64,000 bases of DNA from the NCBI RefSeq assembly GCF_964213995.1, contig NC_135809.1:32736001-32800000 (forward strand), read 5' to 3'. Positions 8,901-57,530 of this stretch are shown one piece after another. The stretch is from Mustelus asterias (Eukaryota). A program made the translations under genes and the position numbers. A model generated the notes under the pieces. That model did not search any database. It saw only the letters and a list, made by a program, of their open reading frames with translations, and was not told the origin of the DNA. Numbering within the stretch: position 1 is the stretch's first letter; every line of letters begins with the position of its first letter.

Positions 8901-9560
8901 GTAAGTAGAAAAGGCAAGCAGCATCGCCACCCTCTGAGTGTGCACTGACATGCTCATTACTGAGCGACCTCGGGTAAAGGGCCGGGTTACATAAATACAG
9001 GAATGACATCAGGGTTCAGAAGAGGACAGTCAGGCCGTGCCAACTTTTTTCTTAATTAAAGTTTAGACAAGGGGAGGGGGGAAGGACACCTCCAATGTAC
9101 CACCATTTTTCGAGTTGATGCAAATTTAATGCATGGCATTTGAATAGTAGAAATTGCAAGGTAAAACCAATGAATTGAGATCTGCCGCTCAAGCCAAAAT
9201 ATTACAATACACACAATCGGTAGCCTGTGGCATTGCTAACAAGTGAGTCAGCCAGTGTCTCAGGTTATGTGATGAATAATATATTAGGATTATTGACTTA
9301 ATAGTGAGTGGATGTCAATTTGTTTTTATTACAGAGTATTGGTGTGATTTAGAGCTTGAAGTTTTACATGTACATGTTTACATAGGAAGAACAGGCATTC
9401 AGGTCAAGAGCAGGAAAGCTGGTAGAGTACCCAGGTGAAGGAATAAATGTTGGAGGTCAGAACAGCAAAGGTAGTAGGAGAAGAAAGACAGGTACAAGCA
9501 CAGGGGGTTGAGGACATAATGTGAGGGCAGACATAGGGAGGAGTAGAGGACAGCAATGTC

Positions 9561-9859
9561 ATTTATTTATTAGTGTCACAAGTAGGCTTACATTAACACA
9601 GCAATGAAGTTACTGTGAAAATCCCCTAGTCGCCACACTCCACTGCCTGTTCAGGTACACTGAGGGTTGGCATGGCCAATACACCTAACCGTCATGTCTT
9701 TCAGATTGTGGGAGGAAACCAGAGCACCTGGAGGAAACCCATGCAAACACAGGGAGAACATGCAGACCCCGCACAGAGATTGACCCAAGCCAGGAATTGA
9801 ACCCCAGATCCTTGACGCTGTGAGGCAGCAGTCCTAACCACTGTGCCACCAAGCCGCCC
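9561..9859 (-). mobile_element. HE1/V-SINE-like tRNA-derived SINE (tail type B)
   Basis: tRNA head ggcacagtggttagg...ggttcaattcc, V-SINE core tgggtttcctcc..gtttcctcccaca, tail ...gtaagcctacttgtgacactaataaataaa. Confidence 0.9.
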
Positions 9860-10149
9860 TGGCTGAATAACTCAAGCTCCAAAATCCTATTAATTCTCCC
9901 ATAACAGCAGTTTGTATTTATAAAGTAAATACAATAGTAGAACATCTCGAGGTGCTTCACAGGACCATTAACAAAATTTGTGTCAAAATGAGCAGAATGT
10001 GAACCTTCTAAGACTTTCTAATAAAGACTGGCAATCATTCATGAAATCCTTCAGCTGTTAGTAGATTGAGTTCAAAGGTTTGTCAGATAGCAAAATACAA
10101 AAACATAATCATTTTAGCAGAATAAATTTTCCTCCCATGTCCAAACTCA

Positions 10150-11420
10150 CCCCCATACCACCTCTTCTTCAGGTGCCATGTTTTACAATGTTAGCAATCA
10201 TGACTCTCCAACTTTCATAGTCCTTATAGCAGCCAACATCTTGGGGTTGATCTCAAATTTTGTACCTGTTTTGCTTCAAGAGCTGTCGATGTATTTCTTC
10301 CTTTGTCTCCCTTTTGTTCCACTACCAACAATTTTTCCAGTAACTACAAGATATTTTAGTTTCTCTCTCCTAAATACATGCCCAAAGAATTGTAGTTGTC
10401 CTTTGGTGATCATTCTCGTGTGCCTGCTGTCCTCAGATTTCTTCATTAGTTGTGTATGTTGTCCAATTAATCCTCGTCAAACATTTCAGCAACCACATTT
10501 CCATTATCTTTTAACTTATCTTCCATTGTTCTGCTTATATTCCAGCTTCACATCCATCTGGTATCATTGACCAGACATAGCATTTTAGTAATATCATTCT
10601 GCTTTCCATAGAGATGGTATATCTAAAAAATCTTGACATTTTTGTGAAGGTTTGTTTTCCAAGTTTTATGCACTTCCTGATATTATGACCACTTTTCTCA
10701 TCAGATGTTATTCGGCTACACAGATAAGAAAATTATTCAACTTGTTTTGTTTCTTTTGATTTCAACATTATTTTGCATCTAGGTGTGGTCAATTTTTTCT
10801 TTCATATTATCATGCATACTGTTTACTAAGTTTCATGATAATCCATATCTGTTAGTGTTTGTTACAATTATGTCTAGAAGTGTTTGTAGATTTTTCTTTG
10901 TACCTGCCATAATTAATATGTCATCTGCATATCCGAGATTATTTGTATGCTGTTCACCCACTGAAATTCCTGGCAACTCTTGATAGATGTCACAGAATCA
11001 TAAAATTTTTACAGCGCAGGAGGCTATTCGGCCCATCGTGTCTGTACCAGTTCTCTGAATGGGCAATTTACTTTGTGCTGTTCTCCTGCCTTCTCTCCAT
11101 AACCCTGCACTTTCTTCCTTTTCAAACAACAGCCTAATTCCCTTTTCAGTGCCTTGATTGAACCTGCCTACACCATGTCTTATAATCATTTCACTGTAAA
11201 GGTTGAAAAGATGAGGAGACAGAATGCAACCTTGTTGTGCTCTTTTTAGTATAAGTTCAGAAGCCGTCTTAATTCTTTCCTTTATGTCCAAAATCTTAAA
11301 TCTACATAAAAGGAGCTTTTATTGAAGATAAATCTCATAAAGTGGGTGGGGAAAGTTGTGATGTTAACTTTATTTGCCATGATTTACTGCAATAAAAAAA
11401 ATAATTTCTTAATAAAATCT
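10150..11420 (-). mobile_element. RTE-type LINE fragment interrupted by a CR1 3' fragment (about 10990-11165)
   Basis: QGCILSPHLFNLYSEMIIR (ORF 10998-11291) and YADD (rc of gtcatctgcata at about 10920-10931). Confidence 0.8.
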
Positions 11421-11449
11421 AATGTTCCACTTATACATCACTCAGTGGC

Positions 11450-11610
11450 CATGATGTGGAGATGCTGGTGTTGGACTGGGGGGTTGGACAAGATGAGAGG
11501 TCACACAACACCAGATTTATAGTCCAACAGATTTATTTGAAATCACAAGCTTTCAGAACTCTGCTCCTTCATCAGGTGAGGTGACCTGGTGTTGTGTGAC
11601 CTCTCATCTT
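11450..11610 (-). mobile_element. Penelope-like truncated insertion with inverted segment
   Basis: Perfect 25-bp inverted repeat 11490-11514 / 11586-11610. Same family as 26744-26892. Direct repeat cttatacatca at 11430 and 11608. Confidence 0.75.
11543..11579 (-). ncRNA. Minimal type-I hammerhead ribozyme motif
   Basis: Minus strand reads UCAC-CUGAUGA-AGGAGCAGAGUUCU-GAAA-GCUU-GUGA. Stem I UCAC/GUGA, intact core boxes, stem II AGGA/UUCU (or GGAGC/GUUCU), palindromic AGCU stem III, NUH triplet CUU. Confidence 0.65.
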
Positions 11611-12592
11611 ATACATCATTCGTCATTTCTTATCCATCCCCATTTGATAGCTCAAACTGAGATAATTGTCGTTATCATTGTTAACGGTATTTGTTAACGT
11701 TGGCAACACCCTAGAATGTCACTGGCTTGTCCAAGTAATCTTACAGGGAGCCCAGAAAGAGAAACAAATGATCGCATTGTGACGAGTGGTTTTGTTGTGA
11801 CCTATCATTCACATGCACATCCATCCATAGACTATCTTAGAATTTTGAAGATTGAAACTGGACAGTAAATTGTACGGAGAACGTAAAATTAATATTAGAT
11901 TGCAACGATCAACTGGGTACATCATTAAAGTGGGACAAGCAGAGAGTGGTGTGCTCCTTAGTTCTTTCCATTATCATATTCAAGCACTGGGGCGCTCCAA
12001 AAGTCACAGTCAGAAAAGACAGGAGTGGCAGAAAGTTTGCAAGACAAGGACCACCCATTTGAAAAGTAAAAAGTACATAATTTACATGATGAACATAAAG
12101 GATCTTGTAAACAAATGTATATGATTATGATCACATTTTAAAAGGTATTTCTTTCAGTAGACTCCATTTTCATGATGTTATAATTGAATTGATTTACTAA
12201 ACACACCCAAAAGCATATTTACATTATTCACTGCCTTATATTTTGATTCATCAGCATGGGGCACAACCTGCAGCAATATTTGCAAATTTACCCAGCCTTG
12301 AATTCACATACATGAAAGTAGAATTCGTATTTCTGTGATACTGACTTAAAAATTCAATGTTTTACAAATACAAATGTGTTCATTAACTATTTACCAACCC
12401 TAATGCTGGACCATAACATGCAGAAGACACTTGAATGAACAAGTTTAGAATTATCTATTTAAACATAGTCTTAATATGAATCTATGAGACTGTTACCCAT
12501 TAACATTAGCGGCAGTTCAGGAATAAACTTCACAATACAACATACATAAACCAGTAATGTAGCAAACATATTTTATTTTCTCTTTAATAAAG

Positions 12593-13677: not shown

Positions 13678-14400
13678 GTTATGATCCTGTTAGGGACTGT
13701 TAATGTTTAAAGACGAAATCCAAACACCCAGCAATTAACCAACAGAACTACAACACAAGGGCTCATATAGTACAAAATTTTATACATCTCTCCCTGTCCT
13801 GAGCTCCAAAGAGGAGTCATATGTACTTGAAATGTTAACTCTGTTTTTCTCTCCACAGACGCTGCCTGACCTACTGAGCTTTTCCAGTATTTTCTATTTT
13901 ACAGCACAAGATTTCATGCTTTAAACACAAAAAACTTAACTGTATATCAACAATAATTAAAGAAGGAAATCCCACTGACTTAATGCTATAGCTTATAAAG
14001 ACTTAAGCTACAAACTCAGTTCTACTTTTTTAAATTCCCCTCCCCCCCACCAATAGTTCCCATATTTCTCAAAATCTTGAAGGTTCATGCACTTTTCCTG
14101 GGACCAACCCGAAAGGTATGTCACAGCTCTCTGGAATTCACTCTGATTTCTCTTCAGTGTTCCAGCTGTTCTCCAGGGTACAAGATAGAATAAGGATCCT
14201 TACATTAGCTTATTGCCAAATTCTTGACTCTAATTTCCAGACATCAAGCACTATCCGCCCTGAACTCCTGCTCAGTGGCTTAGAACATCAGAAAACGCCC
14301 TTGGTTTCCATTGGTCCACTAGTATAGTTCCTTTATTTATTTTCTTCTCCTATTCACAGCCTATGTAGGTCTGGGAGTTAGCTATTTGTTAAAACTTTTC
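13678..14400. mobile_element. Dispersed repeat, possibly solo LTR (second copy at about 51087-51400), with a Penelope-type fragment inserted at about 13800-13900
   Basis: Shared blocks ttagggactgttaa..gaaatccaaac and aaaggtatg(t/c)cacagc..gatttctc(t/c)tcagtgtt; starts with TGT. Confidence 0.5.
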
Positions 14401-14999: not shown

Positions 15000-15102
15000 G
15001 CTGGTGAAAGGTCATCCACCTGAAATGTTAACTCTGTTTCTCTCTCCTTAGTTGCTGCCAGACCTGCTGCCTATTTCCAACATTTTCTGTGCTTATTTCA
15101 AA
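15000..15102 (+). mobile_element. Penelope-type fragment with decayed hammerhead
   Basis: ctggtgaaaggtcatccacctgaaatgttaactct...gctgccagacctgctg...cattttctg; same family as 38848-38990. Confidence 0.6.
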
Positions 15103-26743: not shown

Positions 26744-26892
26744 GTAAGAGTTTTAACAACATCAGGTTAAAGTCCAACAGGTTTATTTGGTAGCAAATGG
26801 CATTTGCTACCAAATAAACCTGTTGGACTTTAACCTGGTGTTGTTAAAACTCTTACTGTGTTTACCCCAGTCCAACGCCGGCATCTCCACAT
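26744..26892 (+). mobile_element. Penelope-like mini-insertion forming a 56-bp palindrome
   Basis: Arms 26744-26799 and 26801-26856 are complementary at 55/56 positions. Flanking direct repeat cttgattat(c/a)cct at 26731 and 26893. Confidence 0.85.
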
Positions 26893-27036
26893 CTTGATTA
26901 TACCTTACAGGTTTCATGTCCCATAGCTTTTCTGTCACTAAGATCGCCTGTTCTCATGGTGTGGAGTCCAGCTCCATAATATATCACAGGTCTCTACCCA
27001 TCTGCTGCTGAAACCTACTTTCTTCCTTTTTTAATT

Positions 27037-38834: not shown

Positions 38835-38990
38835 AGACTGTGGATACTGAAATCTGAAACAGAAACAGAAAATGCTGGAAAATCTCAGGTCTGGCAGCAT
38901 CTGTGGAGAGAGAGAATAGAGCCAACGTTTCGAGTCAGGATGACCCTTCAAAGACCTGCTGAGATTTTCTAGCATTTTCTGTTTTTGTTT
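38835..38990. mobile_element. Penelope-type inverted mini-element
   Basis: 26-bp inverted repeat 38863-38888 / 38959-38984 (one mismatch) enclosing a partial hammerhead (minus strand gaagggtcatcctgactcGAAAcgtt). Confidence 0.7.
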
Positions 38991-57300: not shown

Positions 57301-57530
57301 AAGGTGTGCCGGGTAGGTGGATTGGTCATGCTAAATTACCCCTTAGTGTCCCAAGATGCATAGGTTAGAGGGATTAGCAAGGTAAATATGTGGGGTTACG
57401 GGGATAGAGCCTGGGTAAGAGAGTCGATAAGAAGTCTCACAACACCAGGTTAAAGTCTCCACATTAAGAGAGTCGGTACAGACTTGATGGACCAAATGAC
57501 CATCTTCTGCACTATAAGAATTCGATGATT
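57301..57530 (+). mobile_element. HE1 3' half carrying a 38-nt Penelope-like insertion (57427-57464)
   Basis: Target duplication taagagagtcg at 57416-57426 and 57465-57475. Confidence 0.8.

What the first reader, a model, noticed from the sequence alone, without database searches (positions are those of the whole stretch)
11543..11579. Intact minimal hammerhead ribozyme core in THAP5 intron 1
Seen: the minus strand spells UCAC-CUGAUGA-[stem II]-GAAA-GCUU-GUGA with all core nucleotides, a closing stem I and a palindromic AGCU in place of stem III. It sits between the arms of a perfect 25-bp inverted repeat. Known: minimal type-I hammerheads with a palindromic stem III are characteristic of Penelope-like retroelements and cleave efficiently only as dimers. 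Inference: this is the best-preserved ribozyme relic in the window. It is antisense to THAP5 pre-mRNA, so it could act only on antisense or upstream DNAJB9-strand transcripts.
Basis: partly seen in the sequence, partly recalled or inferred. Interest (0 to 1): 0.7.

Follow-up and report, generated by a model that had tools for sequence, protein, structure and literature searches.

The report
Decayed Penelope hammerhead in THAP intron
This is a real but ordinary, slightly decayed copy of a known tiny ribozyme motif, carried into an intron by a 165-base scrap of a very abundant Penelope-like jumping gene; it faces away from the host gene and is predicted not to cut, although the ends of its sister copies suggest that the element likely copies capped, uncut RNA from both broken DNA strands.

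Summary
The motif is present as described: window 11543-11579, minus strand, in intron 1 of a plus-strand THAP-domain gene. It is the minimal type I hammerhead from the pseudo-LTR of a Neptune/Nematis-type Penelope-like element. It lies in a ~165-bp stub with a short inverted 5' arm, a one-sided tail and a 14-bp target duplication.

It is not special. 1,964 places in the genome match an all-Watson-Crick version exactly. This copy has median divergence, two G-C to G-U changes in stem II (including G10.1-C11.1) and no partner for the required dimer, and it is predicted to misfold in context. Rfam gave no hit.

Sister copies are more informative. In 87 mapped copies, ends cluster at two priming sites, one per arm, and at a +1 site 30 nt after a TATA box with an extra G. 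80 of 87 run through the cut site. This favours priming from both strands on capped, uncut RNA. The scan has noted this reading before on other DNA. Low interest.

The parts
11543..11579 (-). Minimal type I hammerhead motif: stem I 11579-11576 / 11546-11543; CUGAUGA 11575-11569; extra A 11568; stem II hairpin 11567-11555; GAAA 11554-11551; AGCU palindrome 11551-11548; U17 at 11547 (predicted cut 3' of it)
11445..11583 (-). Sense arm of the Penelope-like pLTR stub, element positions -1 to +134, about 91% identical to the family majority
11582..11582 (-). Element +1: inferred transcription start, 30 nt after a TATA box that is present only in longer copies and absent from this stub
   Evidence: inference
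11584..11610 (+). Inverted 5' arm, a copy of element +66 to +92 starting at the upstream priming site; its last 3 nt (11608-11610) are shared with the target duplication
11445..11489 (-). One-sided 'tail' between the two priming sites, ending just past the ORF start codon (ATG at 11452-11450)
11430..11443 (.). Target-site duplication, left copy (14 bp, 1 mismatch to the right copy)
11608..11621 (.). Target-site duplication, right copy
8901..12592 (+). Intron 1 of the THAP-domain host gene; the insert is antisense to it

Best explanation
The motif is the minimal hammerhead of a Penelope-like retroelement's pseudo-LTR, left in this intron as part of a 165-bp fold-back insertion, and it is likely an inert, neutrally decaying passenger. 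Shown: the family identity, the stub's anatomy, its average divergence and its weakened stem II. Inferred origin: the element's GIY-YIG endonuclease cut both target strands about 14 nt apart. One 3' end primed reverse transcription at the downstream start site (about +134) and ran through the uncut hammerhead to the RNA's 5' end near +1. The other primed about 40 nt upstream (+92), giving the inverted arm, and the two cDNA ends were joined. Inferred present state: no cleavage. The ribozyme needs a second copy, it is absent from the host pre-mRNA, and in an antisense read-through RNA it is predicted to be folded shut inside the long hairpin.
For: Family: 4189 first-look candidates, best scored copies 83-91% identical; 1,964 exact matches to an all-Watson-Crick 35-mer (sister subtypes included). 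Element: sister copies are pLTR-ORF-pLTR units of 3.0 kb with RVT_1 and GIY-YIG; this subtype's pLTR follows a 66%-identical endonuclease remnant in L107. Decay: 6 mismatches in 73 nt, equal to the median of 36 copies. Stem II is -1.7 vs -5.8 kcal/mol and the active dimer -9.1 vs -19.1 for the family majority; pairing probability of stems I and II in a 300-nt context is 0.00. Age: contigs of three other organisms carry a junction of the same insert; in one, up to 4 differences fall in the 51 nt holding the motif against 11 in 150 nt of flank (by subtraction). Mechanism, 87 copies: 84 end at +123..+143; 61 have an adjacent inverted arm, 51 of them starting at +85..+99 and 1 at the tail site; 80 cross the cut site; 48 stop within -5..+5 and 2 within +34..+40; in 29 of 61 fold-backs each arm holds at least 10 nt that the other lacks. 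G precedes +1 in 56 of 86 non-templated cases (29% expected) against 3 of 22 at other break points. In vitro, a lizard Penelope protein cuts and extends both strands, starts at two sites flanking the tail and uses mainly uncut RNA (PMC11167929).
Against: This copy keeps the core, the 4-bp stem I and the palindrome, which only a minority of sister arms do (25 of 65 keep the core; 2 of 65 are better), although it was picked for being intact. It has persisted across several species. Folding energies ignore tertiary contacts and protein help, and the lizard ribozyme is protein-assisted. The +1 site and the cap were not observed in RNA; the extra G could come from terminal-transferase activity, and 2 of 22 inspected G cases fall inside the target duplication. 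Later deletions at palindrome centres could also make the arms asymmetric. At this locus the base before +1 is the templated C, so it shows no cap signature itself. In a sister branch, ends at the cut site may be in excess (135 vs 52 and 10 raw counts), but the counts are confounded.
Confidence: 0.85

Rival explanations
1. The copy is a co-opted working ribozyme that cuts antisense or upstream DnaJ-strand transcripts and so tunes the THAP/DnaJ bidirectional locus.
For: Core, stem I and palindrome are intact; the insert is shared with other organisms; it lies about 2.7 kb from the THAP start codon on the DnaJ strand.
Against: No second copy nearby on the same strand; stem II is weakened and the motif is predicted to misfold in context; divergence is at the median; no sign of slower change in one orthologue; single minimal hammerheads showed no cleavage in vitro (PMC4209133); U17 is the weakest NUH triplet (recalled).
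Confidence: 0.04
2. Same relic, but the inverted arm arose by self-priming (fold-back) on a single template, as proposed for rotifer Penelopes, with later central deletion.
For: The model is published for head-to-head inverted pLTRs (PMC3846280, passages). At this locus the inverted arm (+66..+92) lies wholly within the sense arm, so it could be a copy of it.
Against: In 29 of 61 fold-backs neither arm can be a copy of the other. Simple, non-inverted inserts also end at the upstream site with a target duplication (L168, L178, L182), so it is a primary priming site. Both arms stop at the same sense-strand +1.
Confidence: 0.2
3. The motif is a chance match, or a unit of a tandem retrozyme.
For: The loose core pattern is at chance level in the window; Rfam gave no hit.
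Against: It is the family majority sequence of a high-copy element; the strict scan is above chance; the insert is a solo stub with a target duplication, not a tandem array.
Confidence: 0.01

Closest known systems
[quoted passage not shown]
   Same: CUGANGA/GAAA core, extra nucleotide between 9 and 10.1, 4-bp helix I, palindromic 15.2-16.2 without a loop, location in the pLTR, thousands of single dispersed copies.
   Different: Helix II is 5 bp (7-8 bp in schistosome motifs). This copy has G-U instead of the conserved G10.1-C11.1; the family majority keeps it.
Neptune/Nematis-type C-terminal EN+ Penelope-like elements (features as in Craig et al. 2021, PMC8557442; passages read)
   Same: RT plus C-terminal GIY-YIG, CX4CxxC linker motif, adjacent inverted 5'-truncated pLTR, 30-40 bp tail at one end only.
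   Different: This locus holds only 165 bp of pLTR and 8 nt of ORF. The clade was not tested by phylogeny.
Poseidon element of the green anole, PAc (Frangieh et al. 2024, PMC11167929; parts 1-2 of 4 read)
   Same: Two internal priming sites flanking the tail, both strands cut and extended, uncut RNA as the main template.
   Different: Different clade. Here the start codon lies at the downstream priming site, about 90 nt after the cut site, whereas in PAc the ORF starts inside the ribozyme. The parts read do not link the two sites to the inverted repeats and report no site difference between strands in bulk, whereas here each insertion uses one site per arm.
Non-LTR retrozymes (bioRxiv 10.64898/2026.07.22.740005; parts 1-2 of 5 read)
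   Same: Short, non-coding, type I hammerhead, derived from a pLTR.
   Different: Retrozymes are tandem arrays; this is a solo fold-back stub.

Membership tests
min-HHR of metazoan PLEs | CUGANGA and GAAA-NN-UH core | tested here: met
min-HHR of metazoan PLEs | [quoted passage not shown] | tested here: met
   A at 11568
min-HHR of metazoan PLEs | G10.1-C11.1 base pair | tested here: not met
   G-U in this copy, G-C in the family majority; hence filed as a decayed copy of a family member, not as an intact member
min-HHR of metazoan PLEs | Palindromic 15.2-16.2, no helix III loop; short helix I | tested here: met
   AGCU and a 4-bp stem I
min-HHR of metazoan PLEs | Located in the pLTR of an RT/GIY-YIG element | tested here: met
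min-HHR of metazoan PLEs | Self-cleavage as a dimer | not testable with these tools
   needs an in vitro assay; energies only
Rfam hammerhead families | Covariance-model score at or above the gathering threshold | tested here: not met
   0 hits in the window; no hammerhead among 11 matches at E up to 10
EN+ Penelope-like element | Single ORF with RT and C-terminal GIY-YIG between pLTRs | tested here: met
   sister copies L091, L093, L095; for this subtype only the endonuclease remnant upstream of the pLTR was linked
EN+ Penelope-like element | Inverted 5' pLTR copy, one-sided tail, target duplication | tested here: met
Neptune/Nematis clade | CX2-5CxxC motif upstream of GIY-YIG | tested here: met
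   CX4CxxC in L091 and L107; definition
Neptune/Nematis clade | Placement in the RT phylogeny | not tested
Non-LTR retrozyme | Tandem units each with a hammerhead | tested here: not met
   single copy with a target duplication

The most novel reading that the evidence does not exclude
The fold-back stubs record how Penelope inverted repeats are made: a dimeric enzyme primes both cut target strands on capped, uncut, sense RNA from the pLTR's TATA promoter, assigns one of the two internal start sites to each strand, copies to the cap, and the two cDNA ends are joined. This replaces the antisense self-priming model and makes the hammerhead dispensable for these insertions.
Probability: 0.55. Interest if true: 0.5.

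Novelty: new member of a known kind. Interest (0 to 1): 0.2.

Why it matters
The motif itself matters little. Minimal hammerheads in Penelope pLTRs were described in 2014 as occurring by the thousand, and this is a decayed one on the wrong strand to touch its host gene.

The family statistics bear on an open point. The origin of Penelope's inverted repeats and one-sided tail is called undefined in PMC8557442. The pattern here is one start site per arm, both arms stopping at a promoter-proximal +1 with an extra G, and templates mostly uncut. It gives direct predictions for the existing in vitro system.

I did not find this link in four library searches. Subscription papers and supplements were not seen, and earlier agents of this scan have already proposed it.

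Tried and rejected
- Rfam at both thresholds: no hammerhead hit.
- Isolated 37-mer folding z-score 0.21, uninformative.
- Sequencing runs: no RNA holder listed. Only contigs were laid, so expression and strand are untested.
- No empty (pre-insertion) site among the joints shown (36 more joints were not shown).
- Ends at the cut site in this subfamily: raw counts 12 (+37), 7 (+39), 3 (+35). Of the 12, 4-5 are GTG overlaps with an arm that had run to +1 and 2-3 are not truncations, so no excess is supported.
- The same test in a sister branch gave 135, 52 and 10. Of 30 loci viewed, 19 were a sequence variant, 1 was mutated and 10 looked like true ends. The control loci were not viewed. Inconclusive, possibly a real excess.
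- Symmetric target TG-N16/17-CA from earlier scan notes: 2 of 34 sites against 19 of 204 controls, and absent at this locus. The best of 240 other symmetric motifs (CT-N13/14-AG, 8 of 34 vs 7 of 204) does not survive correction.
- No solved structure matched the RT.
- The bacterial promoter scan was irrelevant and empty.
- My first label 'Poseidon' was dropped because of the CX4CxxC motif.
- A 3' splice site at +1 was rejected because no AG precedes it.
- Look-up of earlier findings by sequence found nothing.

Full report
Observation. The minus strand at 11579-11543 carries the hammerhead core with a 4-bp stem I, an extra A after A9, a 5-bp stem II, a palindromic AGCU and U17 at 11547. It lies between the arms of a perfect 25-bp inverted repeat, 11490-11514 and 11586-11610. 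The loose core pattern is at chance level (7 vs 5.3). A strict descriptor finds only this site, and 3 of 100 simulated windows gave any hit. Rfam reports no hammerhead; the paper that defined these motifs needed its own descriptor (PMC4209133). The host is a plus-strand THAP-domain gene with intron 1 at 8901-12592, head to head with a DnaJ gene. The gene names and the likely shark origin are recalled or come from earlier scan notes, not from my calls.

What it is. The motif belongs to an insert of about 165 bp flanked by a 14-bp duplication with one mismatch (11430-11443, 11608-11621). The insert is a high-copy repeat: 4189 candidates, 40 scored, best copies 83-91% identical. One copy runs on into an ORF start. 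Sister copies are 3.0-kb pLTR-ORF-pLTR units with RVT_1 and GIY-YIG domains. This subtype's pLTR follows an endonuclease remnant 66% identical to the sister's. The CX4CxxC motif before GIY-YIG points to the Neptune/Nematis type; no tree was built. An inverted 5' copy and a tail at one end only are the described Penelope insertion pattern.

Is this copy special? No. An all-Watson-Crick 35-mer of the motif occurs 1,964 times exactly, sister subtypes included. The window copy has 6 mismatches in 73 nt, the median of 36 copies. Two C-to-U changes turn stem II pairs, including G10.1-C11.1, into G-U. Stem II drops from -5.8 to -1.7 kcal/mol and the active dimer from -19.1 to -9.1, and in a 300-nt context neither stem is predicted to form. 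In its favour, only 25 of 65 sister arms that cover the motif keep the core and only 2 of 65 have stronger stems, so it is among the better-kept copies; it was, however, chosen for that. Contigs from three other organisms carry a junction of the same insert. In one, up to 4 differences fall in the 51 nt holding the motif against 11 in 150 nt of flank (by subtraction, partial tables). Published single minimal hammerheads did not cleave and dimers cleaved weakly. There is no partner copy here.

How such stubs form. A 29-mer downstream of the ribozyme has 143 exact hits. I mapped 90 of them: of the 100 listed, 4 already held and the last 6 were left out, and 3 segmental duplicates were dropped, leaving 87. 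Position +1 is an A 30 nt after a TATA box in longer copies; U17 is +36 and the ATG is +127. 84 of 87 copies end at +123..+143. 61 have an adjacent inverted arm; 51 of these start at +85..+99, 9 further upstream and 1 at the tail site. The anchor forces the sense arm to carry the tail. In a second set anchored at +1 (30 of 88 hits viewed), all 10 fold-backs with a tail-less sense arm had a tailed inverted arm (3 are mirror views of copies already counted), and simple inserts ended at either site. So each fold-back uses one site per arm. In 29 of 61 each arm holds at least 10 nt that the other lacks, which a simple fold-back copy cannot give without later deletion.

The template. The most upstream point reached lies within -5..+5 in 48 of 87 copies, at +6..+15 in 18, further upstream in 12 and at +34..+40 in 2. 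80 of 87 copies have an arm crossing the cut site. Where the base before +1 is not the templated C, it is G in 58 of 88 genome-wide hits (my count), or 56 of 86 after dropping a triplicate, against 29% expected and 3 of 22 at other break points (the allowed letters differ between patterns). None of the 22 G cases viewed had templated upstream sequence; 2 fell inside the target duplication and 4 belonged to a sister subtype. I read this as reverse transcription to the 5' end of a capped, uncut promoter transcript; terminal-transferase activity would fit too. It agrees with the lizard in vitro work: both strands extended, two start sites flanking the tail, uncut RNA dominant. It disagrees with antisense self-priming. 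Direct counts gave no excess of ends at the cut site in this subfamily. In a sister branch the raw counts were 135, 52 and 10 but confounded by variants, so cleavage in vivo elsewhere in the family stays open.

Literature seen. PMC4209133 and PMC11167929: parts 1-2 of 4. bioRxiv 10.64898/2026.07.22.740005: parts 1-2 of 5. PMC8557442 and PMC3846280: passages; listing only, so the weakness of U17 is recalled. No supplements were read; those of PMC11167929 (genomic ends) may bear on the novel case. Searches for the twin-priming link.

Earlier scan notes already propose twin priming, ends at the promoter, cut-site footprints and symmetric targets on other DNA. I had reached the first two before reading them. 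The cut-site footprint was not seen in this subfamily, and the TG/CA target was not seen in 34 sites.

Verdict. This is an ordinary, decayed member of a known kind. Interest 0.2; novel case probability 0.55, interest 0.5.

Noticed in passing
window 26744-26896: A second fold-back stub of a sister subtype, with the tail on one arm and an apparent target duplication. Its two arms meet in a near-palindrome just after where that subtype's hammerhead would cut, so the core is missing. It could reflect cut templates or palindrome annealing.
   Followed up: partly
window 57426-57457: A 32-bp fragment of a sister pLTR.
   Followed up: no
window 38864-38983, 13825-13898, 15022-15088: Fragments of a second repeat family that carries a different hammerhead-like core in L138; the first has an inverted piece.
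   Followed up: no
L093 676 and 3687; L095 3480; L065 and L107 upstream of the pLTR: Sister subtypes differ in sequence between the TATA-like box and +1 but keep about 30 nt spacing, and they vary at N17 (A or U) and in stem I.
   Followed up: partly
L022 near 1480-1510; L148 upstream of the anchor: Junctions where both arms reach +1 read GAA-GTC-TTC or GAA-GAC-TTC, as expected if two cDNA ends each carrying an added C annealed over 3 nt with a central mismatch.
   Followed up: partly
L034 around 1170-1760: Tandem array of a unit of about 135 bp made of the tail region plus the first codons of the ORF, without the hammerhead.
   Followed up: no
window 10980-11175: A different repeat upstream in the same intron; contigs of two runs skip 194 bases there, possibly a paralogous empty form.
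   Followed up: no
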